64,000 nucleotides of DNA from Eledone cirrhosa (taxonomy: Eukaryota), in contig OZ024743.1 in NCBI GenBank assembly GCA_964016885.1, positions 341,682,001 to 341,746,000 on the forward strand, written 5' to 3'. The notes beneath the pieces were generated by a model, which saw only the letters and a program-made list of their open reading frames with translations, searched no databases and had not been told where the DNA came from. A program made the translations under genes and the position numbers. Below, piece after piece: positions 4,287-63,555 of the stretch. Within the stretch, counting starts at the first letter, position 1; every line of letters begins with the position of its first letter.

Positions 4287-4325
<39 letters not shown>

Positions 4326-4364
4326 GATATTAACAAATGGAAACTATATTTATAAAACCATATC

Positions 4365-4429
4365 TATTTTATTATACATATTTCAAGGATACCATGTTAA
4401 ATTATGTTATGCTTTCATCAGACAAAATA
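4365..4429 (-). ncRNA. Minimal type I hammerhead ribozyme, family B (inverted copy)
   Basis: Reverse complement of 4563-4627 with one helix II mismatch. Confidence 0.8.
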
Positions 4430-4562
4430 CAATATATACCAGTTTTATAAATAAATATTGACATACCCTTTCAAAATGCAACCGTTACTTTTGGAAGACA
4501 AAATTAACGGTTGCATTTTGAAAGGGTATGTCAATATTTATTTATAAAACTGGTATATATTG

Positions 4563-4627
4563 TATTTTGTCTGATGAAAGCATACCATAATTTAACATGG
4601 TATCCTTGAAATATGTATAATAAAATA
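4563..4627 (+). ncRNA. Minimal type I hammerhead ribozyme, family B
   Basis: TATTTTGT-CTGATGA-AAGCATACCAT..ATGGTATCCTT-GAAA-TATGTA-TA^ATAAAATA. Helix I has 8 bp, helix II is present, and loop III is quasi-palindromic. Confidence 0.85.
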
Positions 4628-4754
4628 GATATGGTTTCATAAATATAGTTTCCATTTGTTAATATCATATATTTACTTTAAATACTTGTCGAGTGCTTTA
4701 TATCAGTTATAAACATATTTGCTTGCTGTATCCCAACAATTTAAATAGAACTTT

Positions 4755-4810
<56 letters not shown>

Positions 4811-6799: not shown

Positions 6800-8515
6800 A
6801 TGTCGCAGTCGCTTCCCAGGCAAAATACGATGCCTGCACCCGATGTTTACAATTTATGACTGATTCTGTTCGGCTGTTTATGAGCTCGTGGGGTGTTCTT
6901 ATGATGTAGTACAGCTCCATGAGGCAGAGCTGGTATTTCCCACTGAAGTTGTAGGGTGCAGCCCTACCGACAATATCTCAGTGTGTGGGGGAGCTGATGT
7001 TGGCGTCTTGTAATGTGGTGACGTAGTTGGCAAGCGATGTGGAGTGCCTTAGTATTTTTGTTCCTGAAAGAGTGGAGATGCGTTCTAAATCTCGTTTTAA
7101 ACGAGCCAGAAGTGGCTCCTATATATTGTTTAACTCCGCTATGGCTAGTTACGGTGCACCTATAAGTAACCTTATCAGTCAGGCAGTTTCCCCTGAGAGG
7201 GCAGCCTCCCCTGTCACGACAGTTGCATTTTCCGTCACGGTCGCTCCTGGTTCCTGAAGTAAAGATATTACTATTGCTACCTATGTTGTTATCTATGTCT
7301 CTAACTCGGTCATTGGTACTGTTATCTCTCGAGGCGTGCGGTGTTGTACCATTATCACTCCGCACGCCGCAGCCCGTTCTGTTGCCGGTGGGTGACGCGT
7401 GTGTGTCACCGGTATGTTCTCCAAGCACGCCCTGGATACGTGGGTTTCGTCTGCCGGGGCTGCCACCAACCCTATTTGGTGCTGTTAGGGGGATTTTAAG
7501 GTTATTAGTGTTGTTGTCATGTCTGGATGTATCTGTGCTACGGTGTAGTGTTTTGTACAGTGATTAGTTGCTCCTATGATGTCAGCTAGATTGGGGGTGG
7601 TAGAGAAGGATATTTTGATAGTGTTCCTGTTAAGTATTTTTCTGTATTTATGATTAGGTTGGAAATTCCTCTCCAAGGCTTCGAAGAATATCCTCGGTAT
7701 GTCGGAGGCCACACTCCGAGAGTAGGGGGGGGGGAACCATAGGATATTACGGTGGCGTTTCCCCTTTACAGTGGGTTTGCTACAGGTTGTGCTTCCTAGT
7801 TGACAGTACTTACGGTTGTTCCTGTGCTGTAGCCGGTTATGTGTCCCCCATTACTTTATGTTCAGGTAGGGACGCCTTCCCTCCGTAATTTTTATGTGTG
7901 GCTAGACGCGGGTTTGGGGGGGGGGGGACGTTGGTAATAGGCCGCCGCCGTTGCTGATCCTATAGTTAGGGAATAATTCCAATAGGCTGCAGCGGGTGGC
8001 GTTACCAATCGGGTAACACTTACCATACTGTCGGTTGTCTTGGTCGCCACTCGTGTAATTAACGGTGTGGCCAAGTTTCTTAGTGTGGTTCTCTATACTA
8101 TAGTTCTTGACGCTGTCATGGTTGTAGCGTGCTCTGTTATAGGTATGGCTCACTATAATAATAGTCCTATGTTGTGGTTGGTTTCTATAGCTAGCGTTAA
8201 GGATGTAGGAGATTCTCCGGTTAAAACCGGCATTTAGTAAAACCTAATTATAATATTCGGCCGCTTGGTTGAAGATATCTTCATTGGCGGAGAGCCTCGA
8301 GATCGTATGGGATATGCTATATACTATGGAGTTGAGAGTAGACTTAAGGTGGTTAGATGCATAGTTTATATAAGACAAGATCTCCCGGGACTTATGGTAT
8401 GGATTGTATAAGCCCGTGCTCAACTCCAGGGTTACGTCTAGAAAATTGACTATTTGGTGGTTGAGGTCCATAGTCACTGATAGGCTATATGTCTTGAAGA
8501 ACCTATATATGCATT
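6800..8515 (-). mobile_element. 5'-truncated, frameshifted PLE (RT C-terminus, linker, GIY-YIG)
   Basis: IVNFLDVTLELSTGLYNPYHK (8244..8558); RKILNRNTIKISFSTTPN (7485..7712); CNCRDRGGCPLRGNCL..VTYRC..YIGATSGSFKTRF (6964..7428). Confidence 0.92.
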
Positions 8516-13330: not shown

Positions 13331-14627
13331 AGGGGGTGTCACTTGGAGTTACTGCAGGTTCACCCGGGAGAGCACTCGATGTTTAGGTTCACTTCTGTGA
13401 TGAGGTGTAGAGCTATACAGAGTGTAATATATTGAAAGGATAACAAGGACGATTGACTACTCCTTCATTGCATTTATTGATAGGTGACGCGCGTTTCGCC
13501 ACTGATCAGCTCAAGGTTCGATCTGTATCGATCCTACCCGACTCAATAATCGGCGGCTCGACGGACCCTTTTAAAATGCTATAAGAAAATGGAATACATG
13601 CTATGTGGTAAAGTCAGAGTTTCAAGAGTTTGACAAAATGAGTTGTTTTGATTGGTGGGAAGGATCAAGGGGATGTACTGTCCTATAGTGTATGTGGGGG
13701 TGGATGTGATGGTGAGATGTTGGTGACGGTTGGGCGATGAGATGGGCTGTGGTGTGGTGGTGGCGGGTTGGCCTTGCCCTGTAGTGTATGTGGGATGGAT
13801 GTGATGATAAGATGGTGGTTATGGTCGCTTACTGGGATGGGCTGTGGTGTGAGGTTAGAGGGTTGTCGATAGAATGGGTTATCATGTGTGGAGGTGTGGT
13901 TGTGGTGTTGTTGTTTATGGTAGTGGTGTATGTGGTGGTGCGGTGGATGTGTTGGTGGTGTCGAGTCCTTACGGAGATACATAGCTAGACGCTCTTCGTC
14001 TGACAAATACGTTGTATATATGTATACACACATATATGTATACATGCGCATATCTATTGATGTATATACACACACAACACATACACACACCCTCGCCCAC
14101 ACATATCCACACACACACACTTACACAGCCATATGCATATACACACACATGTATGGGAATGTGGGCATGTGGACACATATAGGGAGAGTGGGGGAGTATC
14201 GGTGGGGGTGGCGTAGGACAAAGATGGAGGGAAAGTGAGAGGCAATGGAGAAGGTGTCATACATATATACATACACATACATACACTCATACACACATAC
14301 GGATATGCGCACATACAAGCACACACATGTATACATAAACATACACACACACACACACACGTATACACACACATATATATACACACATACACACACACAC
14401 ACATACACTTACATGCACATATACGCACACATATACACACACATATAGATTCACTTATATACATATTTATAAATATAAGTATTAAGTTGTTAAACAAGAT
14501 TCGATGATTATGTCAAAGAATGAGTTTTACAGTAGATTGGAAGCACTCAACGAAAAAATAATTTTCAGGAGTTATTAATATTAAAATATAAGTATTAATA
14601 AAATAGATGTTCTTTTGATCAATTACA

Positions 14628-14678
14628 TTTTATTATACATATTTCGGATGTACAACAGTACGTCCTCATCAGACAAAA
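14628..14678 (-). ncRNA. Minimal type I hammerhead ribozyme in a nested pLTR (family E, starting at about 14480)
   Basis: Minus strand: TTTTGT-CTGATGA-GGACGTAC-TGTT-GTACATCC-GAAA-TATGTA-TA^ATAAAA. Confidence 0.85.
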
Positions 14679-15169
14679 TATAATGATACATGACATACCC
14701 TGAGATGTTAAATAGTTAAGATTTAATCAAGGTAGTGATTACCCGATAGCAAATTTTGCTTATATAATATCTGTGTGAGAGTGCAAAAACGTAATGAATT
14801 CATTAGAGAATGTGTGAGTAAGAAAAAACGTTGCATACTTAAAGTGTTCTAAAATTTTAAATTGTATGATACTACGATATAATATATCTAGGGAAACGTC
14901 TCATGAATTATAACAGCCACTGGAAAAATATTTATAAGGAGGGAAAGATAAAGTGTGTGTGGGGGGATTTGGGGGGTGCGAAAGTTAAACGGTTAGAATT
15001 TGGAAATATTTAATTTATAATATTAATGTTATGACTCCAGATTTCAGATTTATATATTATTTATATAAATTCGTTAAGTGTGTTATCATTTCTAATCTTC
15101 TGAATTGTGAGAATAACATTTTAAAGGATTTAGCTGGCACGTGAAGAATGAAATATTATACTGTTGATT

Positions 15170-15835
15170 AATTACCTAAATACCACAAGCTCTTCAATAG
15201 ACACACCGTAAAATTCTCTTTCTCCACAGCACCAAATCTAGGCCACACAATAGCACACACTAATAGGGCAAAAATACCAAAACACATGGTTGCTTCACAA
15301 CAAACCACCACCACAACCCAGAACGAAACCACACACACAACACAACAACCCACACATCAGACCCACACCGCATGACACCAACCGCCAACGTGCCACCACA
15401 CCGGTTACACCCAACTGCAACTGCAAAAACGGGCCGAATGCCCACTAAACGGGGAGTGCCTCGTTAAAAACATTGTTTACCGGTGTGATGTCACAGACGG
15501 CAATAAGGAGTACTCAGATATAGGGGCGACATCCACTACGTTAAAGGAGCGCTGGTATAACCACAGGAGCTCCTTTAAACATAGACTGAAACGACCCCAA
15601 ACCAGACTGGCCGATTTGATCTGGGACCTCAAGGGCAGGAATATTGAACCCCAGATCTCGTGGTCAGTGAAAAGACGCGTGGCACAAGTCCCCAGTGACA
15701 GAAACCACTGCAGATTATGCCTGGCTGAGGCGGCGGAAATAATTAAATTAAAATCCGCCATAAACTATAGGTCGGACATAATTGTCAATTGCAGACACAC
15801 CAGACTGAACACCTTTCCGCACAAACATTCGGAGG
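15170..15835 (+). pseudogene. PLE linker plus GIY-YIG fragment
   Basis: Manual translation gives KLFNRHTVKFSFSTAPN, CNCKNG and NIVYRCDV..IGATSTTLKERWYNHRSSF. ORF 15616..15969 gives CRLCLAE..NCRH. Confidence 0.85.
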
Positions 15836-17973
15836 AGGGCCATGCACTAACCATGACCCAGCATAATAATAACCACATCTGCCCCGTATCACCATCGCCC
15901 ATCTCAGCGAATTTATTAATTTTAATTTATTTTATCTTATTTTATTGTATTGCATGTAACCATTTGTAAGCCCTTATTTTGTATATCATGCCGCATACAT
16001 CACCCCCACCAAAAATCACACTAACCATGACCCACCATAATAATAACCACCTCTGCCCCGTCTTACCATCGCCCATCTCAGCGAATTTATTTTATTGTAC
16101 TGCATGTGACCATTTCTAAGCTCGTATTTTGTATATCATGCCGCATACATCACCCCCACCATAAATCACATCGCCATACACTCCTCATCCTTGCAACATT
16201 GTGTTCGATCAGTCTTCTGTGACAGGTTTTACCTTACAATCCATAGTAACATCGGACCTTGTAAATACAATGTCGATCATATCACACCATTGCCACCACC
16301 ACCACCACACCACACATCGTCATATTACTACCATACACACCCGCAACCTTATCCCCCCCCCCCATGTTCCCTCTGTCTACCCTAACCTACAACCCCACGC
16401 TAAATTCGACCCTGTAAATGTACTGTCGCGCACACACAACCACCGGCACCACTAGATGCATCCACATACTTCAACAATCATTAACATCATTAAAATCATC
16501 AACACATATCATCCCTCACTCCCAGATCGACTGTATTATATCCCCCCCCCCCCCACGTCTACCTTACCGTGTTACACACCGTAACTTCTGATTATATAAT
16601 CATTTTGTCGAACATATCACCCCAGCACCACCACCACCACCATGACCACAATACACATCGCCATACGTCCATAAACTCTTTACCCCCGCGTCCCCTATGT
16701 CACCTTTTAACCTGTAACCCATCGCACTATTCGATCCTGTATATTTTTGTAGCTCACACTCCACCACAAGACTCAACTCCATACTTTATCAACACTGCCA
16801 ACACATACCTACCCTCCCGAACCAACGCAAGTGTGTGTGTCTGTGTGTAAGCATTGTTTACATATACGGGCGTATAAATATGCGTGCGTGTATGCATATA
16901 TATGTGTGTGTATATATATATACACATATATATATATATTTATATATATGTATATAAGTGAATCTATATGTGTGTGTATATGTCTGCATATATGTGCATG
17001 TAAGTGTATGTGTGTGTGTATATATATATATATGAGTGTGTATACGTGTGTGTGTATGTGTGTATGTGTATGTTTATGTATACGTGTGTGTGCGTGTATG
17101 TGCGCATATCCGTATGTGTGTATCAGTGTATGTATGTGTATGTATATATGTATGACACCTTCTCCATTGCCTCTCATCTTCCCTCCATCTTTGTCCTACG
17201 CCACCCCCACCGACCTCTCCCACTCTCCCTATATGTGTCCACATGCCCGCATGCCCATACATGTGTGTATATATGCATATGGCTGTGTAAGTGTGTGTGT
17301 GTGGATATGTGTGGGCGAGGGTGTGTGTATGTGTTGTGTGTGTATATACATCAATATATATGCGCATGCATACATATATGTGTCTGTATACATATATACA
17401 ACGTATTTGTCAGACGAAGAGCGTCTAGCTATGTATCTCCGTAAGGACTCGACACCACCAACACATCCACCACACCACCACAAACACCACTACCATAAAC
17501 AACACCACAACCACACCCCCACACATGATAACCCATTCTATCGACAACCCTCTAACCTCACACCACAGCCCCATCCCAGTAAGCGACCATAACCACCATA
17601 TTATCATCACACCCACCCCCATATACACTACAGGGTAAGGCCAACCCACCACCACCACACCACAGCCCATCTCATCGCCCGACCGTCACCAACATCTCAC
17701 CATCACATCCATCCCCACATACACTACAGGCCAGTATATCCCATTGATCCTTCCCACCAATCAAAACAACTCATATTGTCAAACTCTTGAAACTCTGACT
17801 TTACCACATAGCATGTATTTCATTTTCTTATAGCATTTTAAAAGGGTCCGTCGAGCCGCCGATTATTGAGTCGGGTAGGATCGATACAGATCGAACCTTG
17901 AGCTGATCAGTGGCGAAACGCGCGTCACCTATCAATAAATGCAACGAAGCAATAATCAATCGTCATTGTTATC

Positions 17974-26171: not shown

Positions 26172-26220
<49 letters not shown>

Positions 26221-26225
<5 letters not shown>

Positions 26226-26690
26226 ATTAAATAAATGGAAAACTATATTTATAAAACCATATTTATTTCATTATATATATTTCGGGGATATCATATTAAC
26301 AATATGCTATGCCTTCATCAGACAAAATACAATATAAACAGTTTTATAGATAAATATATTCGACATACCGTAATAGACATCAACTTCATTTGAAGAGGTT
26401 TACTCTAGCAGTGAAAATACAGAGAGAAAGGAAGAGAGAGAGAAAAGAGGGAAATAAGAAAGAAAGAAAGACAAAACGAAGAAAAGGAAGAAAAAGAAGA
26501 AAAAGAAAAAGAAGAAATGCAAGGGACAAAATAGAGAGATGGAAAAATAGATAAAGCGAAGAGCTTCATGTAAAGAGACAGAAAGAGATATATATATAGA
26601 GAGGGAGAGGAAATAGAGATAGATACATATATAAATATAGAAAAATTAGGTAGTGGGAGGTCATTTTGAGTAAGTGTATCAATGATGCAT

Positions 26691-26725
<35 letters not shown>

Positions 26726-27291
26726 TAAATAAATAAATGCATCATTGATACACTTACTCAAAATGACCTCCCACTACCTAATTTTTCTATATTTATATAT
26801 GTATCTATCTCTATTTCCTCTCTCTATATATATATATATCTCTTTCTGTCTCTTTACATGAAGCTCTTCGCTTTATCTATTTTTCCATCTCTCTATTTTG
26901 TCCCTTGCATTTCTTCTTTTTCTTTTTCTTCTTTTTCTTCCTTTTCTTCGTTTTGTCTTTCTTTCTTTCTTATTTCCCTCTTTTCTCTCTCCCTTCCTTT
27001 CTCTCTGTATTTTCACTGCTAGAGTAAACCTCTTCAAATGAAGTTGATGTCTATTACGGTATGTCGAATATATTTATCTATAAAACTGTTTATATTGTAT
27101 TTTGTCTGATGAAGGCATAGCATATTGTTAATATGATATCCCCGAAATATATATAATGAAATAAATATGGTTTTATAAATATAGTTTTCCATTTATTTAA
27201 TATTGTAAATATACTCCAAATATTTGTCGAGTGCTTTTATATCAGTTATAAATATTTACTAGTTGTAACCCAACAATTTTAAATATAACTT

Positions 27292-27296
<5 letters not shown>
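26221..27296. mobile_element. Palindromic pLTR insertion (family B) with arms of about 490 bp
   Basis: 26221-26710 and 26725-27206 are near-perfect reverse complements centred on a (TTTA)n/(TAAA)n switch. The tail 27207-27296 is on the right only. Confidence 0.92.
27098..27163 (+). ncRNA. Minimal type I hammerhead ribozyme, family B (inverted twin at 26264-26329)
   Basis: TATTTTGT-CTGATGA-AGGCATAGCATATT-GTT-AATATGATATCCCC-GAAA-TATATA-TA^ATGAAATA. Confidence 0.8.
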
Positions 27297-27351
<55 letters not shown>

Positions 27352-30092: not shown

Positions 30093-31890
30093 CAGAGTAA
30101 TTCGTGGTAGAGGGATGGTCAGTAGGAATGTGTCTGTAATTGTGTGGGGGATATTTTAACATGTTAAAAGCTATTTTTCAGCTCTTGTCTTACACGGAGA
30201 AGTGTGTGTGTGTGTGTGTGTATGTCTCTTTGTATGTTAATGTACGCGTGTGTATGTGTATGTGTATATATATGTGTGTGTGTCTGTGAGAGAATGTGTG
30301 TGTGTGTGGGTGTGTGGATGGACCAGTATTTATTTCTGGTAAAATGGTGTACATTATTCGATATTTTCAGTAAAATCGATTCTCTCAATTGAACATCAAA
30401 CACTTTAATAATAAAAGGTGTGAAATGATATATAGTATTGGCATAATACCAAGGTGTGTGTAAGTGTGTCCAGATTGTACGTAGTGCAAGGGGGATCCAT
30501 TAGGCCTTGCCGTATTGGAATACCTGTGCACAAATATGTATCTGGAGTGTGTCCAGATTGAACGTACTGCAAGGGGAATTCATTAGGTCTTGCCGTATTG
30601 GAATACCTGTGCACAAATATGTATGTGCCCATCAGTGTGCAATGCATGTGTGCGTTTATGTATGTGTGTGTGTCGGCATGTTTATATCTATAGACATCAA
30701 AAGGTATGCAAATTTGTGTATATTTGTGTTGCATCATAGAACATGTGTGTTTACGTATGTAATTGTGTTTATATGTGGGTAGAGATGTATGCTGATGTAG
30801 GTATGTATGTTGACGTGTGTATGTTGTGGGTTCGTCTTAGGGCGAAGTGTTTAGACGGAGTCCGTATTTGTTAATAAAATAAGATTCCTTGCTGATGCGT
30901 TGGGTGTGGGTGGCATTATCTTTAAATTTGTAGAGGGAAAAGATTCTGAAGTTGGGATGATTTTGGGCGGCACAGGTATCAATGTGTTCACTCAGTGGTA
31001 TTTTCCTGTATTCCCGTATTTTAATTTGAGATCTATGGACAGTCAGACGTTGGCGGAGGCTATTTTTGGTCTGGCCTATGTATTGTTCTCGACAACCTGA
31101 GCAAGTTAATACATATATTAGATTTTCTGATGCGCATGTGAAATTGTGTTTTACTATAAAACGTTGTCCTTCTTTGAAATAGAATTCCGAACCCTCTATT
31201 AGGTTTATGCAAATGCCACATTTGGGTCTATCGCATTTTTTTACTGTGGGTTTCGTTGTTGTGGTTGGCAGTACTTTGGCATGTGTTAGGATGTTTTTCA
31301 TTAACTTAGATTGTTTTTTGCTCTTTATGATATCGTGTGTTCGTAGGATTTGGTTCATACTGTGGTCCTTTTTCAACACAGGGATGTTCTGGAGGATGGT
31401 GTCAAAGGCCTCATTGTTGAGGGGGTTGTGTGTGGAGATGTATGGATGAGCTTTTAGTTTCGGTTGATTTACTTTAGGGTGTCTAAGGTCCTGGGTACTG
31501 AGTTTTAGGGCACGTTGGATTCCATTGTCAATTAGTGATGCAGGGTAGTCCTTACCTATGAGTGTGTCCTTTAGTTCTTGTAGCCGTAAGTAGCAGGTGT
31601 TTTTATTGGAGACTATAGTACAGATTCTCTTGGCTAAGTTGTAGGGAATATTAATTTTAACGTGTCTAGGGTGGCAAGAGTTGAAAGGAAGATATTGCTT
31701 GGAGTCTGTGGGCTTGTAGTATATGTCTGTTTCTATTTTTTTGTTATGGATATTAATGAGGATGTCGAGGAAGTCGAGTTGTCGATGGCTGTATTCCATC
31801 GTGAAGTTAATATTCGTGTTGAGCCCATTTATAAGAGTGTGAAATTCATTAAGTTTCTCGATGACCATCCTTCTACCACGAATTACTCTG

Positions 31891-31957
<67 letters not shown>

Positions 31958-32513
31958 CACGCATACACACACACATACACACACATACACACACACGCAC
32001 ACACACACACACACTTGTCTTAATAGGCATTTGAACTGTCAAGAGGCTGCGGTTCGCCCACACATCCCTGCTGACCATTATCACAACAACGAACCTCTTT
32101 ACTACTACTACACACACATATTTGTTGTGAAAGACTTATTTCTCAGTCAGCCGACACAAACCTACATTTGGCGCAAAATCAATTTTTTACATTCACATGA
32201 CCTCTACCGACAAATTAAAATTGTTTTGACCACAAGAATTTTTGCAACACGAATTGGCGCAAAACTTATTTTAATACCGCTGGAGCCACTTTTTTAACAT
32301 AAAAACAGGTAGAATTCCCAAAACTAATCAGATCAGAGCAAACATCACGGACGCTCTATCTCAAAATTATTTTTGTAAAGCATTAGAAATGCGCAACCGG
32401 TAAAACTAAAAACCAAAACTGAATACTAACCAATACTATTACTAATTCTCACTTATTCCTAATTAAACTATTTTTCACTGTGAACAATTTGTCAGCATTT
32501 TCTATTCCGTTTA

Positions 32514-32923: not shown

Positions 32924-34648
32924 TATAAATGCACAGTTAAAACTACCGATAATATATTTAAATATGTTGGTGCCACTTCAACAAAATTTTAGGATCGCTG
33001 GAATAATCATAATCATACTCTAAGAAAATCTGTTAAAAAATCTTCTACTTCACTTTCACATCTTATATGGGATTTAAAATACAATAATATAGAATATTCA
33101 ATATCTTGAAGAAAGATTTCGAAAGCACCTGCATACCGAAATACGGTTTTATCATGATTATGTAAATTGTTTTATCGAAGAAATGTTTTATGTAATTAAC
33201 TGTCAAAACTCTATTAATCTCAGAACAGAATTATTTTCTTCTTGCAAACAACGCCAAAATTCCAAGTCCAGAAGTATTTTTAAATTATAATATCTCTATA
33301 ACCTTCAAAATGATCCTATTTCCTTAACAAAATTTAAATGTAAATTTTTTAAAATTTTTTATATTTTTAAATAATTTTAAATATTTTTAAATATTTTTAA
33401 ATATTTTAAAAATATTTTTAATATTTTAATATTCTTTAATATTTTTAACATTTCAGAAATTCTTTATACCTCTAATATTTATAATAATTTTAATATATAT
33501 AATTAATATTTTATTTTCCTACACCTTTTAATTCTGACATTACTTTTAATTCCGACATTATTTTTAATTCTGACTTTCTTTTGTAAGGACACACCAAATA
33601 TTTTGAGTAGATTGATAATCTTTAAATGATATTCTAAAAATTCATCCTATTTAAGATAGTTCTTTGAAGAACACATTACATTTTTCCTCTCTTTTGTTAT
33701 CTAAACATTCACACATCTTTCGACTAAAGTAATTGATCTCACACCGAATAATATATAATTTTTTCTTCTTTAATTTTAAATAAAATTAGAGTTATCTTTG
33801 CTCTATCAAGCGTTACAAACATAAACACTATTTTCAATCGTGAAAACATAACGATTTTTTGTTTGATAATCTATATAGCTTCGTTAAATTAACAATATTC
33901 TAAAACATTCTCAATGTTGAACAAAATTTTTGAATTCACAAATTATTCTACTCTAACAACTTGAAAATACAATTTCGACACCCTTCGTAACTCATATATA
34001 AACAATCAATACATACGCAACTTATAAAATAAAGTACCAGTAATGCACTGGGTATTTGCTGGCCTTGTGCCTAACGTAGAACCAATTATATATATAGATA
34101 TTTATATACATATACCCTATCCTAATATAATAAGATAAAAATACTTACAACCATAATTCTTCATATGATCTAATTGATTATGTATACAATATTATAACTC
34201 ATAATATAGATAACAAATCTTTTTCCCCAAATTAACGAGTATCCTCTCTCTTCACATACAATAAGTTATCATAATTATTTAAATTTTCCATAGCGTCTAA
34301 AATAACGTTTTTTTCAGCCCTTTTACATAAACCTCATTTGCATACTCATATTAATAATTTTAAATATCTGGTCTTTTTCTCTTCTCATCACTTTCCATGG
34401 ATACCTTGAACTATTAAGGTATATTATCCTTATATTTATAAAACATTTTGTATGTAATCTGATGATAGCGTACCAAAATGTTGGTACCCTTGAAATATAT
34501 ATAATAGAATAAATATTGTTTTATAAATATAGTTTCCAATTATTTAATATCAATGTATATTATACTCCAGAAAAAACTGTTGAGTGCTCTAAATCAGTTA
34601 TAAACATTTATATTCCTTGAATTACCAACAAATTGAATATCCCTTCTG

Positions 34649-34650
<2 letters not shown>
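32922..34650 (+). mobile_element. Truncated AT-rich PLE: GIY-YIG remnant (to about 33290) plus a family B-like pLTR with an HHR at 34451-34510
   Basis: YKCTVKTTDNIFKYVGATSTKF; CTGATGA-TAGCGTACCAA-AATG-TTGGTACCCTT-GAAA-TATATA-TA. A SINE 3' piece lies at 34024-34090. Confidence 0.8.
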
Positions 34651-34716
<66 letters not shown>

Positions 34717-34747
34717 TATATATATAGATATATATATGTATATATAT

Positions 34748-35382
34748 AATGCAATGAAATACCCATGATCGTTTGGTAAATCACTGATGAGGGACTCATT
34801 TTATAACATGTTATCCATGTGCAACCAGCAGTATTCTTCTCACCCATATTTTTCATATATTTACCCAAACTGCAATTCTGTGTTTCTCTCTTTCTCTCTT
34901 ACTGCTCCCTCGTTCTCTCTGTTTCTCTTACTTTCTTTCGTCCCCTCTGCCATGTCAGTTAACTCTTTCTCTCTACTGACCTCTTCCTCGCACTCCCACT
35001 CACTCAGTCCCTGTTTCTCCCCATCTTTCTTCCCCCCGTTCGCTGGGAAAACGGTTTTCATTCTTTCTAACACCGGATTCACTAGCGAAAGGTCTGTTTC
35101 TGACTCGCTCATATATTCACACAGCTTATGCTGAAAAATAACTATGTTGCTTGTGTTTATTTCCATCTTCGGTTAGGTTCCCCCTGTGTTGTTTACTTGT
35201 CTCACTCGCTTTACGCGTTTCTATTGTCCTAATAACTTATTTTAGTTATTATCACTCCAACGTGAGGTATATGATTTTTAATGCGATGAAATACCCATGA
35301 TCGTTTGGTAAATCACTGATGATGGACTCATTTTATAACATGTTATCCAAGTGCAACCAGCAGTATTCTTCTCACCCATATT

Positions 35383-35390
<8 letters not shown>
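34748..35390 (+). repeat. About 530-bp unit with a ~110-bp terminal direct repeat between (TA)n tracts; related copy at about 5900-6105
   Basis: GAAATACCCATGATCGTTTGGTAAATCACTGATGA...CCCATATTTTTCAT occurs at 34757 and 35288. Confidence 0.75.
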
Positions 35391-35436
<46 letters not shown>

Positions 35437-35560
35437 GGAAAAAATGAAACGAAATTTGCATATCGAGTGGGTTAACCCACTCGATATGCAAATTGGGCTA
35501 CTCAGCCCTTAATATGCATAAGATAAGTATATACGTTCAACAATCTGGGAGGAAGGTATA

Positions 35561-35601
35561 CGTTGCTGACGATAGCTAATAAGCTTGAAACTAGTACAGC
35601 G
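35561..35601 (+). ncRNA. Minimal type I hammerhead ribozyme
   Basis: CGTTG-CTGACGA-TAGCT-AATA-AGCTT-GAAA-CTAG-TA^CAGCG. Confidence 0.9.
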
Positions 35602-35984
35602 TTCCTTTGTCAGTGTTGAACAAACGAGCAACGATGGTTGCTAGACACTACGGCTTAATACGGGATGTTTGTTTACAAACACACCGAGCATTATAATAAA
35701 TGTTCGGTGAATCCAAACGTACATATATATATATGTGTGCATGTATGTATATATATATATACATACTACTGTACGTCTGTATACATATATGTATGTACGT
35801 ATACATACTTATATTTAAGTAACAGCCGTACTAAGAGTGGGAAATGTAATTTCGTTTCATTTTTTCCGTTTATCGTTTTCGGTGCACCCGGCCGATTAAC
35901 TCACTCCATATGCAAATTGGGCTACTCAGCCGTTAATATGCATTAGGTAAGTATATACGTTCAACAATCTGGCTCGAATGTATA

Positions 35985-36025
35985 CGTTGCTGACGATAGC
36001 TAATAAGCTTGAAACTAGTACAGCG
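35985..36025 (+). ncRNA. Minimal type I hammerhead ribozyme
   Basis: Identical core. Helix I extends through GTTCAACA..CTGGC / GCCAG-TGTTGAAC. Confidence 0.9.
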
Positions 36026-36406
36026 TGCCTTTGCCAGTGTTGAACAAACGAGCAACGATGGTTGCTAGACACTACGGCTTAATACGGGATGTTTGTTTAC
36101 AAACACACCGAGCATTATAATAAATGTTCGGTGAATCCAAACGTACATATATATATATGTGTGCATGTATGTATATATATATACATACTACTGTACGTCT
36201 GTATACATATATGTATGTACGTATACATACTTATATTTAAGTAACAGCCGTACTAAGAGTGGGAAATGCAATTTCGTTTCATTTTTTCCGTTTATCGTTT
36301 TCGGTGCACCCGGCCGATTAACTCACTCCATATGCAAATTGGGCTACTCAGCCGTTAATATGCATTAGGTAAGTATATACGTTCAACAATCTGGCTCGAA
36401 GGTATA

Positions 36407-36447
36407 CGTTGCTGACGATAGCTAATAAGCTTGAAACTAGTACAGCG
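36407..36447 (+). ncRNA. Minimal type I hammerhead ribozyme
   Basis: Identical core with the long bulged helix I. Confidence 0.9.
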
Positions 36448-36645
36448 TGCCTTTGCCAGTGTTGAACAAACGAGCAACGATGGTTGCTAGACACTACGGC
36501 TTAATACGGGATATTTGTTTATGAACACACCGAGCATTATAATAAATGTTCAGTGAATCCATACGTACATATATATATGTCTGCATGTATGTATATATAC
36601 ATAGTACTGTACGTCTGTATACATATATGTATGTACGTGTACATA

Positions 36646-36703
<58 letters not shown>

Positions 36704-36709
<6 letters not shown>

Positions 36710-37492
36710 CGGCGATATCGAATTGCGGCAGTGATCAAAAACAAAGCGAAACGCAATTTTCGAGATATGCGGCAAGTGCTCAATGGACTAAAATAAGCCA
36801 GAGTAATAAACATACGTTATAACGGCCAAACAAACTGAAAGCCCCGGTCAAGAAGCCATCAGCCACTCGAGCCAAAAAAACGAAGCAAGCTAAACAGGTC
36901 AAACGAAAGAATTTACTTGGAACCCAGGAATTGATGATATAATCCAGTGAAAGGTTTCTGCGACAAGTAAATCAATTATACTGCCTGCTTCAATATTAAG
37001 CTTTTCGTATAAGGATCGAACAAGGCTGACATTTCGTCAACAGGTATTTTGTTCTATGCCAGCGAGCGGGATCCCAGCAGTAGTAGTAGTAAGGTGCTGT
37101 ATTGATAACCCCACGGGTATTACCCTGCAAGGCAAGTAACCCCAGTTTTTGGCGGATGAATATAGCATGTGTAAAATTAATGCAAGAATTGCCAAAACTG
37201 ACAAATCGAATTAAGCTCTCGATCGGGTTGTTTTAAAAATAAACTTAAGCAATTAATCAGTCAATAGAATTATTTAATAGAATTAACTGTTTAATTACTA
37301 GGCCCCGGAGATTAATACAAATATAATTTCAGCGAGATCGAATTTCGGAAGTTGTCAAAAACAAAGCGAAACGCAATTTTCAAGATATGCGGCAAGCGCT
37401 CAATGGAATAAAAGAAGCCAGAGCAATAAATATAGGTTATAGAGGCCAAACAATCTGACAATGGTGGTCAAGAAGCTACAGCCACCGAATCC
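36704..37492. repeat. About 617-bp unit with a diverged ~170-bp terminal direct repeat
   Basis: TAATTTC(G/A)GCGA..CAAAAACAAAGCGAAACGCAATTTTC occurs at about 36704 and 37324. Confidence 0.7.
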
Positions 37493-37874
37493 AATATATA
37501 TATATATATATAATAGGTAGATTTCCGACGTGGATCGAGACTTGTTGATTAGAAAAACACATGTCTTCTCCTATCTTGTTTTTCTGTTTCTACATATTTT
37601 TACTACATTCGTACGGGCTTCATTTCTTTTCACTCCTAAACACCCACTCAACTCTATTTCTATTTTCTGATTAATCAATAGCGTCCGAAAATTAAGACTG
37701 TTTTTTGACTCTATTGAATGGTAATCTAACATAGGATTATGGCATTGTATTGTTGTTTTGTATTTTTTTCAACCTCAACGTTTCTTCCACACATTCCTCA
37801 AACACACACGCGCGCGCGTACAGACACAGATAGTTGTGTATATATAAATATATCAATAATAATGATATAATGAT

Positions 37875-54962: not shown

Positions 54963-54973
54963 ATATATATATA

Positions 54974-56380
54974 TGAATAAAGTTAATATATCTGAGGGTA
55001 CAAGGTACCCCCAGAAATATATATAGGTTGTCTATGATTCAAGGAGGTTCTATGGTAATAATTTGATATACCAGAACTTAATATCAAGATAAGCAGAACA
55101 AGCAAAATTCAACCAATTTTTCAAAATAAATCAAAAATAATTTACAATTAAAATTAATCAAAATTAAAAAATATAATATAAATATTTACCTATTCAAATA
55201 GCCCTTACTGTACAGTTTCACTTTGCAAAACATGAGATATCACATGGATATTAATGGAAAAACAAAGATCATCAGAGAAGCATTTTCCTTTCCTAGGGTT
55301 AAAAACCTCAGGAACGATAAAATATATGACCTCGTCTCCAACTGACACGAGTCTAAAGGTCGTAAAAGTGACCCGTATGTTCGCTGGTGTGAAGTGAAGG
55401 CGGGAAATCGTAGACTTGTTGTCTATAGTCGCCACTAAAAAAAATAGCAGCTAATTAGAACGACAGATTTGTTCTCTACATAACGGAGAATAATGAATAA
55501 AGTTAATATATCTGAGGGTACAAGGTACCCCCAGAAATACATAGGTTGTCTATGATTCAAGGTGGTTCTATGGTAATAATTTGATATACCAGAACTTAAT
55601 ATCAAGATAAGCAGAACAAGCAAAATTCAACCAATTTTTCAAAATAAATCTAGGAAAGGAAAATGCTTCTCTGATGATCTTTGTTTTTCCATTGATATCC
55701 ATGTGATATCTAATGTTTTGCAAAGTGAAACTGTACAGTAAGGGCTATTTGAATAAGTAAATATTTATATTATATTTTTTAATTTTGATCAATTTTAATT
55801 GTAAATTAATTTTGATTTATTTTGAAAAATTGGTTGAATTTTGCTTGTCTGCATATCTTGATATTAAGTTCTGGTATATCAAATTATTACCATAGAACCA
55901 CCTTGAATCATAGACAACCTATGTATTTCTGGGGGTACCTTATACCCTCAGATATATTAACTTTATTCATTATTCTCCGTTATGTAGAGAACAAATCTGT
56001 CGTTCTGTCTAGCTGCTATTTTTTTAGTGGCAACTATAGACAACAAGTCTACGATTTCCCACCTTCACTTCACACCAGCGAACATACGGGTCACTTTTAC
56101 GACCTTTAGACTCGTGTCAGTTGGAGACGAGGTCATATATTTTATCGTTCCTGAGGTTTTTAACCCTAGGAAAGGAAAATGCTTCTCTGATGATCTTTGT
56201 TTTTCCATTAATATCCATGTGATATCTCATGTTTTGCAAAGTGAAACTGTACAGTAAGGGCTATTTGAATAGGTAAATATTTATATTATATTTTTTAATT
56301 TTGATTAATTTTAATTGTAAATTAATTTTGATTTATTTGGAAAAATTGGTTGAATTTTGCTTGTTCTGCTTATCTTGATA
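54974..56380. mobile_element. Non-coding 516-521-bp unit as two head-to-head partial tandem arrays, with hammerheads
   Basis: About 1.3 units on the minus strand (54974-55650) and 1.4 on the plus strand (55650-56380). ORFs 55205..55435(-) and 56027..56257(+) are near-identical. Confidence 0.85.
55665..55745 (+). ncRNA. Type I hammerhead ribozyme with an extended helix II (copies at 56181-56261 + and 55201-55281 -)
   Basis: GCTTCT-CTGATGA-TCTTTG-[CATTGATATC..GATATCTAATG hairpin]-CAAAGT-GAAA-CTGTACAG-TA^AGGGC; loop III is a perfect palindrome. Confidence 0.75.
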
Positions 56381-56842
56381 TATATATATATATGTATATA
56401 TACATGTATGTATGTGTTTCTAAAATGAATAAAAATGTCGTGTTTCAATAATTAAAAACACACACCATAATGAAAGTTCTGCGATAAATTCCGAGCTATT
56501 AATAATATAAATTCAAGAGCGAATTAGATATATTAGAATATATCAAACAATATACAGGAGATATTTCGCAAAAAATGTAAGTGCATATCAACTAGAAATG
56601 AGCAATATAGACAGTTTAACAATAAAATAAGCAAACGGTGCATGCTGAACACCAAATAATTATTTTACTCTCTCATACATAATACTTTCATGGCTATAGA
56701 ATTATGTTTCTCTTTCGAATCGTGAAGATCATAAGGTAAGTAGGTGCAGTAGTTAGAGAGGGCTAACTAAATATGAACTCACACCATTAAACAAATCTAA
56801 GGTCTGGCCAATAACACATGGAGTTAAGAAATAACACCACGT

Positions 56843-57315
56843 TGACGAATACCAATAGTATGAAACAGAGATCTGTCAGCTTATCTCCCTTGTTTGTTGA
56901 AAAAAGAAATAAGTAACATAGTCGCTACTTTAAAATGATAGCGTAAGGTCTTCAAAATGTTTTAAATTAAGTATACAGTGTATTGCCAAATATGCGATAG
57001 ATCTCTGTTTCATATATACATCGCTATTTCAGAGCACCAATTCTAATTTTCAATTTTTGCTGGACCGGCAACCGCTCTGTATAATCAGTTCCTGATTATT
57101 ACTGAAATTCTATAAGAATCCAACATTTATAATTTTCAACAAACAAGGGGAGTGCTAGGCTCTGACGAATACCAACAGTATGAAACAGAGATCTGTCAGC
57201 TCATCTCCGTCTGTTTGTTGAAAAAAGAAGTAAGTGACATAGTCACTACTTTAAAACAATAGCGTAAGGTCTTCAAAATGTTTTTAATCAAGCATACAGT
57301 GTATTGCCAAATATA
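56843..57315 (+). mobile_element. Non-coding ~320-bp unit, about 1.5 tandem copies with hammerheads; retrozyme-like
   Basis: TGACGAATACCAA(T/C)AGTATGAAACAGAGATCTGTCAGCT occurs at 56843 and 57163; the element ends in (TA)n. Confidence 0.8.
57133..57224 (+). ncRNA. Type I hammerhead ribozyme with a long helix I
   Basis: GGCT-CTGACGA-ATAC-CAACA-GTAT-GAAA-CAGA-GA-TCTG-TC^AGCT, closed by TTTTCAACAAACA/TGTTTGTTGAAAA. Confidence 0.9.
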
Positions 57316-57316
57316 C

Positions 57317-57389
<73 letters not shown>

Positions 57390-59837: not shown

Positions 59838-60399
59838 ACTATCTCTAAGGGTGCCGCCACGCTACAAAAATTCTAGTGCAAACTACATAAATGCTCGTAC
59901 GGAGTATATGTAAAATTTGATACGGAAAATTAATTCAGAATCCCCCCCCCCCCCCTAAAAAAAATTAAAATAATTAAATAAATAGATAAATATTGATATA
60001 CGAGAAATTAAAGCAAAGATACCACTAAAAAATATAGAAAGCACGGGAAAGGTGCGGCCATCGGATAAGAAGGCTAGTATCCGGGGTCTAACACATCTGC
60101 TATAAAAAGCGGAGTCGGCCAAATCTATCATAGATTAGGGGAAGGGGGTGGGGGTACTGAGGTTACAAGGGACCGAGGGGCTGCCTCGGGTGGGCGAGAA
60201 AGTAAAAGGACGAAGACAAAGAAAGAGGACTGGGGTGGAAGGACTAGGGAGGGATGGGGGAAGAATGAAATATAGAGGAAGTGATAAAAAGATATAGAAG
60301 AAGATATTAGGTCTACCTTTGCAAGCAGGGATTACCCGATACAAAATCGGCAAGTGGGGTGTTATAGCCCTAGTCTACCCCTCCCGGGTCATTATGGGG

Positions 60400-62536
60400 T
60401 TTGAGGGCAAGGTAAGTCCTATGCAATCGATGTTTACATGCAGTTACCAGTTCATCTATCTTGTTATAGGAGTTGGTCCGTCGAGAACAGCATTTGTAAA
60501 GTTTCCTCCGAGCATAAATTGCACGGACGGCATCCTCCCGTGTAAGAGTTGGCTCTGGACAGGAAGCTCCAAGTGAGATCATAGGTAATAATGTTATCCT
60601 TGAGGTCCCATATGTGGCCCGAATGTGTAGTGGCGTGACTAAACGCCAGGCCGGGTTTCGGAAGGTATGTCTGTGTTGGTATAGCCGGGTCTTGAAGTCA
60701 CATGCGGTTAATCCTATATAGGCTTTGTTGGAGGCGTCCGTCCTCACGTTGCACTGGTAGATCACATTACGATCTCTGCGTCTGTTGTCGAGGGGGCAAA
60801 TGGATCCATCAGGACAGTTGCACCTCCTGGTCGGCTCTCCACTGCTATTTCGGTTATTTCTTCCATGGGGGTTAATTTTTTTGTTATTAGAGGGGACGAT
60901 GTTTTGTGCAAAGTTTGGTGTGGTGCTGTAGGAGAGTTTGATGGTATTTTTTGTTAATTATGTTGTGGTAGCGGTGTTGTAGTGGCAAGTGTCTTTCAAT
61001 GAGCCTAAAGAAGATTTTCCCGATAGGAGTTGTCACCTCGGCGTTGTGGGGAGGATTGAACCATGTTACGTTGCGTGAACGGTGGTGTCGCCTGCTAGTT
61101 CCGCTAATAGAAGCTCAACAGTAGGATATTTCCTCCCGGAAATCACTCCGCATGAGGGCCTGGTTGTAGTAAGGCGCATGTTCCTCGAATATCTGCTCAT
61201 TAGCTGACAAATGAGATATGCGGAGGGAGATGTTTTTAACCAGGTTATTTGTGATGTTCCTAGGATGGTTTGGCCGGCGGTAGATGTAGTGTAGGTTGTC
61301 GTTAGGTTTCCTGTATGGGTAGTACATATCATTATCGAGATCAAGGGTAACATCCAGGAAGTTAACTCGGGTCAGGTACGTTTATAGGGTTATTTTAAAT
61401 CCCCAGACGCGGAAGAAGCTGATTAATTGTTTACGGACCCGATCTGTACTACTGGGGTTGTACCCTTTAAGGGTAAGGAGCCCATCATCACGGTACAATC
61501 CACCGCCGAATGCAGGAAACAAATCGGTGAGTTTGGCTATTAGGAATAATCCTATAAGATCTGTGACCTCAGCCGAATCCGTCGCGCCCATGCTGACGTC
61601 GAAGGGTGAGTCGGGAGCTCTCTTTATCCATTTGGAGTTGTCGAAGAGTAAGACTGTCTTCCTGGCGTGGAGGATGATGTTTCTTTCCTGGTCGGTGATG
61701 GGCACAAGTGTTTCGGCGAAGTCCAAGGCAGCCGTAAGTAGCGGTAAGGTGATTGAAGCATAGTAACTCTCTATATCAAACTGGATGAATTTAGTGTCTC
61801 GTTTTTCCTCCATATTGCTGAACCATGAGATCACTTCCTGGGTATTGATCCATAGGCTAAGTCTGGCGTGTTGCTTAACTTTTGGTATCACGCGGTCTAG
61901 GATTTTTTTGCTGATTCTCCCTATGTCGAACTTCGTTGGGTTTATAAGCCTGATAGAAGGTTTACGGTCGAAATCGGATTTGTGGTCCTTCAGTGTGAAG
62001 TAGGGTGTCCGTGGGTCTAGTGGTTCCGACGCGGTCGGCGACCCCGAGGCTGGAGGTAATTTGTTGCCATCTCGATTTATGTCCTCGATGCATGAGTGGT
62101 TAGCCTTTTTATAGGTGGAGTTTAGGCTGCTCCTGATCAGTGTGTGGTATCTGTCGGGGTTGACAAAGTAGAGGTTACTAGTTTTATCCGAGTGCACCAT
62201 GATGTCGTTGGTGTTATCGTACTCTGTTAAGTTGCTACAGAGTTTTTGTAGGAATCGGTTGTGTCTGGGTTTGAATTTAATGTTCTTGACCAGTTGGAAA
62301 AGGTCATTCTCGAAGGGTGAGAGAATAGGGTTCGGAGGGGGTGATTTGTAGGTAATAAATCCGAATCTCTCCTTGATACCGAAGTCCTGATTCTCGCAAT
62401 ATCTGTCGTAGAAAAAAGTTCTCCATCTACGTCTTTTCGCAAATGGATCGATTTTTTGCGTGAGCATCCGAAGGTAAAGTTTTTTCGGTGGGACTGGGAT
62501 TTTCTTGGTAGAGAAGTCGGTGTTGTGTTTTCGCAT
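60400..62536 (-). pseudogene. PLE RT-endonuclease ORF with several frameshifts
   Basis: MRKHNTDFSTKKIP..SDKTSNLY..TLKDHK..RLINPTK..FDIESYYASI..FDVSMGATDSAEV..GLYRDDGL, then YRKPND..NHP, WFNPP and IYQCNV..YIGLTACDFKTRLYQH in shifted frames. Confidence 0.93.
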
Positions 62537-63555
62537 GGTGCGGGTGAAAGTACTTGAGCTTAGCGGAAAAGTCTGGATACGGCGTGATAGGGTCGGAAAG
62601 TGCTCTACTACGGGAATAGGAGCTGGATAACAAAGGAAATGTGGTAAGGAACCAGGTGGACCATAACACACCAAAGTACTCAATACTTAGGGTAGTAGAG
62701 TGGGTAATAGAAACGAGTAGGACCCCGACGGCTGAGCTCAAGCCGTTTCGACTGCTAATTCTGGACTAAATGAAAATGTTTATCCTGGTATTTGAAATGC
62801 CGAGCTTCTCAGGGGGTAATTCCATATATGGTAAAAGTGATTGTCACAAGGATTGGTCAAAAGTTTGTTGTTGAGACATAATAATTCTATCAAAGCAATT
62901 TGTGGAGGGAAGGCGTAGCTGAACCTGCCAGTAGAAGAAAAAGGGAGAGGGGGTGGAGGAAACCCAGTCGTGGTTGATAGTGCCAACCACGGCTGGGCAG
63001 GAGGTCAAAGAAGATACTAGGGAGGGGAGGGGGAGGAAGTCGAAACAATAAGTAAAACAATATGGGGTAAATATATAGAAAAATACCGGGAGTGTTAAAA
63101 AACAATTAAGTGTAAAGTAAAAAACAATTTCTGGTTACTATAACCTAAGGACAGCTATCAAGTCTCTCACTGGTACTGCTAGACTAATGAAAGGTTTACT
63201 AGGTGGGGCGGAATTATAATGAGACCCTTTTAAGAGGTATAAGTAAGCAACCGAATATATCTTACGGTGACGGGTCAACAAGTGGGGGGTCAAAATACTA
63301 AAGAAACTACCACGAAATAATAAATCAGAGTCCGAGACCAGTAGGAAATAAAAGTTTCTACCCCAGGCACAAGGCCTGCAACCACCCAGTGCCAACAAAA
63401 TATAAACTAATACGAAATAATAATTCAGAATCCCGAAAAACAATACTAATACTATCTCTAAGGGTGCCGCCACGCTACAAAAATTCTAGTGCAAACTACA
63501 TAAATGCTCGTACGAAGTATATGTACAATTTGGTACGGAAAATTAATTCAGAATC

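What the first reader, a model, noticed from the sequence alone, without database searches (positions are those of the whole stretch)
35433..36650. Tandem 423-bp hammerhead repeats: candidate retrozyme / circular RNA system
Seen: three non-coding units, each with an identical complete minimal type I HHR (CUGACGA/GAAA core, palindromic CUAG loop III, GUA cleavage triplet). Each has a long bulged helix I (GTTCAACA..CTGGC..AAGG..TACGTTG pairing with CAGCGTGCCTT..GCCAGTGTTGAAC) and further hairpins (AGCAAC/GTTGCT, CACCGAGCAT/ATGTTCGGTG). Known: minimal HHRs with palindromic loop III cleave as dimers, and metazoan non-LTR retrozymes are short tandem HHR units that yield circular RNAs. Inference: a read-through transcript would self-process into ~423-nt monomers or circles. 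I do not know this family from the literature.
Basis: partly seen in the sequence, partly recalled or inferred. Interest (0 to 1): 0.9.

Follow-up and report, generated by a model that had tools for sequence, protein, structure and literature searches.

The report
Abundant two-armed hammerhead retrozyme family
This is an older copy of a non-coding repeat whose hammerhead (predicted self-cutting RNA) core occurs over 12,000 times in this animal genome, and whose youngest copies are back-to-back runs of identical units that were likely written by a Penelope-type reverse transcriptase copying round a small RNA circle, a step so far only proposed for such elements.

Summary
The repeat is real: 2.8 units of 422-424 bp, three identical hammerhead cores, cut sites as predicted. 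It is one copy of a dispersed family with 12,756 exact cores and no ORF attached in 67 sampled loci, so it is a non-LTR retrozyme, a known kind.

Insertions carry Penelope marks: a (TA)n target, 5' truncation, head-to-head arms and two fixed 3' ends about 60 nt apart. 58 of 62 classifiable arm pairs use one end of each kind. In 19 young loci (172 monomers), 12 variants are fixed across a whole locus, 25 are singletons and none is partial; no indel lies at 200 cut junctions. This supports rolling-circle copying of one monomer circle (about 0.6).

The window's third unit looks like a later DNA duplication. Cleavage, circles and the helper element are not shown. This scan noted the same two-armed pattern before in other families of this genome.

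The parts
35387..35433 (.). Left (TA)n tract, the insertion target
35431..35456 (-). Short inverted arm: 26 nt of the tail, ending at the family's long (T) 3' end, CCGTTTA|(TA)n
   Evidence: (L001 q27-52 on the minus strand)
35453..35494 (.). 42-nt perfect palindrome joining the two arms; AATT microhomology and a fold-back at GGTTAACC (mechanism inferred)
35474..35895 (+). Unit 1, 5'-truncated
35535..35621 (+). Hammerhead 1 with extended helix I; core 35566-35596, predicted cut after 35596
35597..36020 (+). Cut-to-cut monomer 1 (424 nt), predicted circle
35812..35873 (+). Internal copy of the ~60-nt tail between the two fixed 3' ends (inferred reverse-transcription start sites S and T)
35959..36045 (+). 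Hammerhead 2; core 35990-36020, predicted cut after 36020
36021..36442 (+). Cut-to-cut monomer 2 (422 nt), predicted circle
36234..36295 (+). Second internal tail copy
36381..36467 (+). Hammerhead 3; core 36412-36442, predicted cut after 36442
36443..36651 (+). End of the long arm at the short (S) 3' end, CATACTTA|(TA)n
36648..36705 (.). Right (TA)n tract, the insertion target

Best explanation
The array is one copy of a high-copy, non-coding hammerhead repeat family (a non-LTR retrozyme) that sits in (TA)n tracts as head-to-head arms and is likely mobilised by a Penelope-type RT-endonuclease copying round a predicted ~423-nt RNA circle. Steps: (1, inferred) A read-through transcript of two or more units folds double hammerheads through the self-complementary ACUAGU helix III and cuts after GUA. 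(2, inferred from published retrozymes) A host ligase closes the monomer. (3, ends shown, enzyme inferred) A PLE protein, probably a dimer, cuts (TA)n and primes both DNA ends on the same RNA at two internal sites about 60 nt apart, about 215 and 275 nt downstream of the cut. (4, inferred) Each RT rolls round the circle for a variable length, from a few dozen nt to 14 units. (5, junctions shown) The two cDNA ends join head-to-head, often over a few shared bases or a fold-back. The window copy is an older insertion of about two units, whose middle period was later duplicated in the DNA.
For: Copy number and ends: 12,756 exact cores, control 0; 3,842 exact tail-end/(TA)n junctions against 4,625 read-throughs. 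Of 130 arms in 67 loci, 51 end at S, 51 at T and 28 elsewhere. Of 85 head-to-head pairs in 126 loci, 62 could be classed: 58 S+T, 3 T+T, 1 S+S, p 1e-13 against 50%. 5' ends do not pile up at the cut: 0 of 111 within 5 nt and 5 of 170 within 10 nt.

Monomer bottleneck: 19 young loci with 172 monomers give 12 locus-fixed variants, 25 singletons and 0 partial; 0 of 10,000 permutations reach 12. Markers are shared by both arms in L213, L215, L217, L221 and L229, and a length class in L212. 18 of 21 loci with cores on both strands have one subfamily on both, against 33% expected. No indel lies at 200 of 200 cut junctions.

Selection on the fold: the helix I pair U-G is G-U in 12 and A-U in 10 of 51 distinct rows. 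A sister family with about half the letters alike gives the same predicted circle layout.

Literature: two RT start sites flanking the tail, cutting of both strands and a predicted dimer in a purified PLE (PMC11167929); circles and RtcB ligation in other retrozymes (PMC7229834).
Against: No cleavage or RNA data were obtained. The core lacks G10.1-C11.1 (U-U), and the catalytic fold is 7-9 kcal/mol above the minimum-energy fold as a monomer. Only 1 of 9 Xenopus retrozyme dimers cleaved in vitro (bioRxiv 10.64898/2026.07.22.740005). In the one purified PLE, ribozyme mutants still inserted and uncleaved RNA was the main substrate (PMC11167929).

The query array L139, which was left out of the 19, has partial variants (286C in 5 of 7 monomers, 173G in 2 of 7). 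Older arrays alternate ABAB (L103, L228; L143). Across all ages, only 42 of 109 units in multi-unit loci have their nearest neighbour strictly inside their own locus. The young loci were picked by likeness to one array, and assembly polishing could smooth arrays.

Linkage shows no clear break at the cut (mean |D'| 0.81 there, 0.72-0.91 elsewhere). The covariation rests mainly on one pair, i.e. two or three events. No helper with a homologous pLTR was found.
Confidence: 0.6

Rival explanations
1. Same Penelope-driven element, but the template is an uncut, linear multi-unit transcript from a donor array. The ribozyme is slow or acts at another step.
For: Unprocessed RNA was the dominant substrate for the purified Anolis PLE (PMC11167929). 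The weak core and weak helix III would slow cutting. Seamless junctions and the lack of 5' pile-up at the cut fit this equally well. ABAB arrays and partial variants in L139 fit copied heterogeneity.
Against: A variant fixed in all 3-17 units of a locus needs a one-unit bottleneck followed by expansion. This happened repeatedly within a lineage whose loci differ by 0-2 substitutions per 424 nt. There are no partial variants and no singleton shared between loci.
Confidence: 0.15
2. The ribozyme cuts out linear monomers, and the RT makes multimers by jumping precisely from the 5' end to the 3' end of the same molecule. No ligation is needed.
For: It explains the monomer bottleneck. End-to-end template jumping is a known property of some non-LTR RTs (recalled).
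Against: No indel or added base at 200 of 200 junctions, and no excess of arms stopping at the cut (0 of 111; 5 of 170).
Confidence: 0.1
3. PLE-style insertion delivers one or two units, and the long arrays grow afterwards in the DNA by unequal crossing-over or slippage, or are partly assembly artefacts. This is the satellite model of the 2026 preprint.
For: It is the best reading of this window's third unit (mosaic break away from the cut), of ABAB blocks with older diverged end units (L228), and probably of the long 93%-identical arrays on C4 and C28. Most arms in the 67-locus sample are under two units.
Against: The longest homogeneous arrays are among the youngest copies. They occur on at least eight of the large numbered contigs, are long on both inverted arms, and keep exact S and T ends. 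DNA-level growth should accumulate with age and act on each arm separately.
Confidence: 0.1
4. The units are ordinary pseudo-LTR fragments of an autonomous PLE that was 5'-truncated before its ORF.
For: Same target, tail, inversion and hammerhead habits as the young PLE family at L061-L091. The tail can be read as a short ORF-start-like peptide.
Against: No same-sense ORF leads into an arm in 67 loci. Arms of up to 5.8 kb consist of units only. No pLTR homology was found in 70 stretches downstream of PLE endonuclease hits, apart from insertions of the families themselves.
Confidence: 0.05

Closest known systems
Metazoan non-LTR retrozymes (coral, mussel, axolotl Rtz331/Rtz353; PMC7229834, parts 2-4 of 6 read)
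   Same: Non-coding AT-rich tandem units with one type I hammerhead each, thousands of copies and a highly self-paired predicted circle. The one-pair helix III with a palindromic tetraloop matches HHR_Amex1, and the U-U at the base of helix II matches HHR_Amex2; both cleave better as dimers.
   Different: No sequence relation was tested. Cleavage and circles are not shown here. The parts read describe no tail, head-to-head arms or microsatellite target, and give rolling-circle copying by an RT as a hypothesis.
Animal retrozymes as non-autonomous PLE derivatives (bioRxiv 10.64898/2026.07.22.740005, parts 1-3 of 5 read)
   Same: Tandem hammerhead units that co-occur with PLEs and are proposed to use PLE enzymes.
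   Different: That work is mainly on vertebrates, finds pLTR homology for 24 of 57 Xenopus families, and discusses local DNA amplification. Here no homologous parent was found, and the young arrays point to expansion at insertion.
Penelope-like elements with tail and inverted 5' copy (PMC8557442, passages; PMC11167929, parts 1-2 of 4)
   Same: 5' truncation, partial tandems, an adjacent inverted copy, a tail at one end only, AT-rich or (TA)n targets, and internal RT start sites flanking the tail.
   Different: No ORF. The tail is about 60 nt rather than 30-40 nt. Arms reach 14 units of one monomer.
Minimal PLE hammerheads (PMC4209133, passages; PMC6765202, passages)
   Same: Palindromic 15.2-16.2 and loop 3, and a need for dimer folding.
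   Different: This motif has a 6-bp helix I with a bulge and long extension and a 4-bp helix II, and it lacks G10.1-C11.1. It fits the paper's 'canonical' metazoan layout better than the minimal one.

Membership tests
Non-LTR retrozyme | Short tandem units (about 150-450 bp), each with a type I hammerhead motif | tested here: met
Non-LTR retrozyme | Non-coding, low GC, no LTR-type organisation | tested here: met
   No ORF of 130 aa or more over the array; GC 0.32-0.36 in the 2-kb bins holding it; arms are units only. PBS and PPT were not searched for specifically.
Non-LTR retrozyme | Dispersed, mobile copies | tested here: met
   12,756 cores; 99%-identical arrays on many contigs
Non-LTR retrozyme | Self-cleavage of the transcript | not testable with these tools
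   Core intact and helices conserved, but no assay
Non-LTR retrozyme | Monomer-length linear and circular RNA in vivo | not testable with these tools
   No RNA run available to lay; only indirect genomic signs
Non-LTR retrozyme | Target-site duplication longer than 4 bp when present | tested here: inconclusive
   Both ends lie in (TA)n, so a duplication cannot be read
Non-autonomous PLE | PLE insertion anatomy: tail at one end, 5' truncation, inverted partner arm, microsatellite target | tested here: met
   58 of 62 S+T pairs; scattered 5' ends
Non-autonomous PLE | Sequence homology to the pLTR or 3' end of an autonomous family | tested here: inconclusive
   None to the young Neptune-like family or to 70 endonuclease-downstream stretches; this is a small sample of the genome's PLE families
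Autonomous PLE pLTR | Unit follows an RT-GIY-YIG ORF in the same sense | tested here: not met
   17 of 67 loci had a PLE protein hit nearby, none running into an arm in the same sense
Minimal PLE hammerhead (min-HHR) | G10.1-C11.1 pair with an extra base after A9, reduced helices | tested here: not met
   U-U at the base of helix II and full helices I and II. The sister family has G-C at that place.

The most novel reading that the evidence does not exclude
A dimeric Penelope-type enzyme primes both ends of one (TA)n cut on a single ribozyme-made RNA circle, one subunit at each side of the tail, and both roll round it. This would explain at once the PLE tail at one end only, the inverted arm and the tandem repeats, and the young arrays of this family are direct fossils of it. 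The 424-nt circle and the co-active 1,217-aa PLE would be a ready substrate-enzyme pair for testing it.
Probability: 0.5. Interest if true: 0.72.

Novelty: new member of a known kind. Interest (0 to 1): 0.5.

Why it matters
The class is known, but how retrozymes and Penelope-like elements make tandem and inverted copies is still open. Rolling-circle reverse transcription was proposed in 2014 and 2020 (PMC4209133, PMC7229834). A 2026 preprint also discusses growth in the DNA, and the one in vitro PLE system did not need ribozyme cleavage (PMC11167929). This family gives countable genomic evidence (the S+T rule, locus-fixed variants on both arms, seamless junctions) and a very young subfamily that could be assayed directly. 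If true, a self-cut circular RNA would be the transposition intermediate of one of this genome's common repeats. The window copy itself is an older and less informative member.

Tried and rejected
Rfam at gathering score: no hit in the window.

Sequencing runs: no RNA holder listed. Four contig runs were laid. They show the family in organism A; organisms B and C gave only 6 and 2 low-depth pieces, which is no evidence of range. No loose end clearly led into a coding sequence.

Helper search: the young Neptune-like family found through L012 shares the (TA)n target, has a tail of similar length, and shows S+T ends in 4 of 4 pairs read by eye. But its pLTR has no homology to the unit. The L012 join is S+S, and another head-to-head join (L100) involves a different PLE type. 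So the helper is not named. Pfam gave no hit for that 1,217-aa protein, and PDB gave only E 0.04 and 0.12 hits to other RTs for part of it. Its clade label rests on motifs, the CX2-5CxxC description in PMC8557442 and recall.

Co-location of 4 of 29 such loci with the unit (L062 excluded) was set aside as shared target use.

The linkage-break test at the cut site was inconclusive.

Reading the tail as a vestigial ORF start gave short peptides only and was not pursued.

The window's three units were rejected as a rolling-circle record.

The right neighbour (36706-37500) was tested as a possible ORF-bearing relative. In 30 loci it is a ~620-bp tandem unit with no canonical hammerhead in the 11 loci scanned, and no PLE ORF hit joined to it.

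A direct genome-wide count of trimers was not obtained; multi-unit arrays were sampled by DNA search instead. The dimer-cleavage paper PMC5785218 was not held.

Paper searches returned no description of this family or of the S+T rule. Subscription journals, Repbase and Dfam were not searchable. The supplements of PMC7229834 were not opened and those of the preprint are closed; either may list related families.

Full report
Observation. The array lies at 35472-36652, period 422, 2.8 copies, 96% matches, between (TA)n tracts at 35387-35433 and 36648-36705. Three identical 31-nt hammerhead cores start at 35566, 35990 and 36412, and the GUA triplets end at 35596, 36020 and 36442. A strict descriptor finds 3 sites in the window against 0.03 in shuffles. 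The monomer folds far better than shuffles (z -6.3; circular fold -124 to -147 against about -95 kcal/mol). Rfam finds nothing at gathering score, and no ORF of 130 aa overlaps the array. The quoted helix I matches unit 3 only. The left end is an inverted 26-nt piece of the unit plus a 42-nt palindrome.

The ribozyme. Helix I has 6 bp next to the core, a bulge and a long extension. Helix II has 4 bp with an AA(U/C)A loop and a U-U at its base. Helix III is A-U closed by palindromic CUAG, so two copies can pair through ACUAGU. By the wording of PMC4209133 (passages) this is the canonical metazoan type I layout with an unstable helix III that works as a dimer, not the minimal motif. PMC7229834 reports both the one-pair helix III and the U-U in axolotl retrozymes, which cut poorly as monomers and well as dimers. 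In 61 copies (51 distinct), chosen as 87-nt rows, 93.8% of cells pair. The pair next-but-two to the core is U-G in 25, G-U in 12 and A-U in 10. These rows are related, so this is two or three events, not a probability. Further compensating changes between subfamilies are visible by eye in other hairpins and in a long-range helix. A sister family (about 466 bp, 1,633 exact cores) aligns at about half its letters, has G-C at the base of helix II, and gives the same predicted circle layout. I infer selection on the fold of the whole monomer. Cleavage is untested. The catalytic fold lies 7-9 kcal/mol above the best monomer fold, and only 1 of 9 Xenopus dimers cleaved in the 2026 preprint.

The family. 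The genome holds 2.996 Gb. The core occurs exactly 12,756 times, the reversed control 0 times. I read the 67 loci holding the first 100 matches on contig C1. Positions are given as q, with q1 at window 35822 and the cut at q199. Of 130 arms away from locus edges, 51 end at the short site S (CATACTTA, then TA repeats; BLAST end q410-420), 51 at the tail site T (CCGTTTA, then TA repeats; q40-58) and 28 elsewhere, some of these through broken chaining in old copies. S and T are about 60 nt apart. Genome-wide, 3,842 copies stop exactly at T and 4,625 read through it. 5' ends are scattered, none of 111 within 5 nt of the cut; the sample is conditioned on holding an intact core. 17 of the 67 loci have a PLE protein hit with five queries, but none runs into an arm in the same sense. 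Four subfamilies show median divergence of 0.3, 2.3, 4.2 and 7.6%, i.e. successive waves.

Two-armed insertions. In 126 loci there are 85 head-to-head arm pairs. 23 could not be classed; of the other 62, 58 have one S end and one T end, 3 are T+T and 1 is S+S (one duplicated locus counts twice). The window obeys the rule: T on the 26-nt left arm, S on the long right arm. Many junctions overlap by 1-7 nt, some by 11-47 nt, and others have short inserts. This matches published PLE anatomy, with an inverted 5' copy and a tail at one end only (PMC8557442, passages). It also matches the in vitro finding that a PLE protein cuts both strands of AT-rich DNA, is predicted to be a dimer, and starts reverse transcription at two internal sites that bound the tail (PMC11167929, parts 1-2). 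The element is therefore very likely moved by a PLE enzyme (about 0.9).

Template. A search with a long array found 99%-identical arrays on many contigs. I fetched 20 of them and scored 19; L227 belongs to another sub-lineage and also has its variants in 5 of 5 units. Their 172 complete monomers are nearly identical within a locus, for example 15 of 15 in L208. There are 12 variants fixed in every unit of a locus, 25 singletons and none partial, and no permutation in 10,000 gave more than 1 fixed variant. Markers are shared by both inverted arms in L213, L215, L217, L221 and L229, and the 422-nt length in L212. None of 200 cut junctions has an indel. Repeated expansion from one monomer, at insertion and on both arms, is what rolling round one circle predicts. 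Against this: the query array L139 has partial variants, older arrays L103, L228 and L143 alternate ABAB, the sample was picked by likeness, polishing could smooth arrays, shared markers could come from one donor locus rather than one molecule, and linkage shows no clear break at the cut.

The window copy. It belongs to the 2-3% diverged subfamily. Unit 2 shares its private changes with unit 3 from q80 to q213 and with unit 1 in its 3' part, so the break lies between q213 and q268, not at the cut. The simplest reading is an insertion of about two units, then a DNA-level duplication of one period. Transcription of this locus is unknown.

Helper. A very young PLE with a 1,217-aa ORF, a YVDD motif, a CX4CxxC linker and a C-terminal endonuclease-like domain (Neptune label from motifs and recall, no Pfam hit) inserts in (TA)n with a tail of up to about 59 nt and is joined head-to-head to the unit at L012. 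Its pLTR is not homologous to the unit, and a join to another PLE type exists at L100. It is a candidate only.

Comparison and novelty. It works like, and by the testable features is, a non-LTR retrozyme (PMC7229834, parts 2-4 of 6; bioRxiv 10.64898/2026.07.22.740005, parts 1-3 of 5) and a non-autonomous PLE by anatomy. Rolling-circle copying by the PLE RT was proposed in PMC4209133 and PMC7229834 and reviewed in PMC6765202 (passages). Seven paper searches showed no description of this family or of the S+T rule; repeat libraries and closed supplements were not seen. Earlier notes of this scan describe the same two-armed pattern in other families of this genome. I saw them after my own counts, and they are not independent support.

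Verdict. A new member of a known kind. Interest 0.5: the family gives quantitative genomic support for an unproven step in PLE and retrozyme biology and makes it testable, but nothing is shown at the RNA level, and this copy is an older one.

Noticed in passing
L068:2920-3825; L248-L268: Sister retrozyme family with a ~463-470-bp unit and 1,633 exact cores, long head-to-head arrays and the same predicted circle layout. It is most alike in the tail, the ~80 nt after it and the core.
   Followed up: partly
window 34733-35395 (also near 6011 and 25181): Left neighbour in (TA)n: a partial tandem in which GAAA comes before CTGATGA, the reversed-order hammerhead that earlier scan notes describe.
   Followed up: partly
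window 36706-37500, minus strand: Right neighbour: a ~620-bp unit in partial tandem ending in (TA)n, with a motif like this family's tail hairpin, no canonical hammerhead seen and about 2,950 first-look candidates genome-wide.
   Followed up: partly
window 56843-57323: Another hammerhead repeat (~320-bp period, long bulged helix I, helix III CAGAGATCTG) ending in (TA)n. At L099 a copy of it seems joined in the same sense directly upstream of this family's unit, which may be a template switch between two retrozyme RNAs.
   Followed up: no
window 4317-4810, 26214-27349, 34433-34704, 14460-14691: AT-rich families with CTGATGA...GAAATAT(A/G)TA hammerhead-like cores; two lie as inverted arms between (TA)n tracts.
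   Followed up: no
L061-L091, L145-L147: Very young Neptune-like PLE, at least 140 copies at 98-100% protein identity, several with an open ORF of about 1,200 aa containing a long Asn-rich insert. It has three 3' ends in (TA)n, and its tail encodes the ORF's first residues.
   Followed up: partly
L012:1385-3244 and L100:4548-7122: Head-to-head joins between the retrozyme unit and 5'-truncated PLE ORFs of two different types, without a TA tract at the join.
   Followed up: partly
L103, L143, L228: Arrays alternating two diverged units (ABAB; 420/422 nt). They could come from a dimer circle made from an old locus or from DNA-level duplication; unresolved.
   Followed up: partly
G000:C4:351.89-351.93 Mb and C28:109.96-110.06 Mb: Clusters of long arrays of the unit about 93% identical to the window, satellite-like.
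   Followed up: no
window 30837-32135, 60370-62686, 15376-15969, 6964-7563: Fragments of PLE ORFs of at least two types; GIY-YIG Pfam hit for 30837-31880.
   Followed up: no
window 1-1496 and 54973-56381: Other tandem repeats: a 565-bp period at the window start, and head-to-head ~520-bp units noted earlier by the scan.
   Followed up: no
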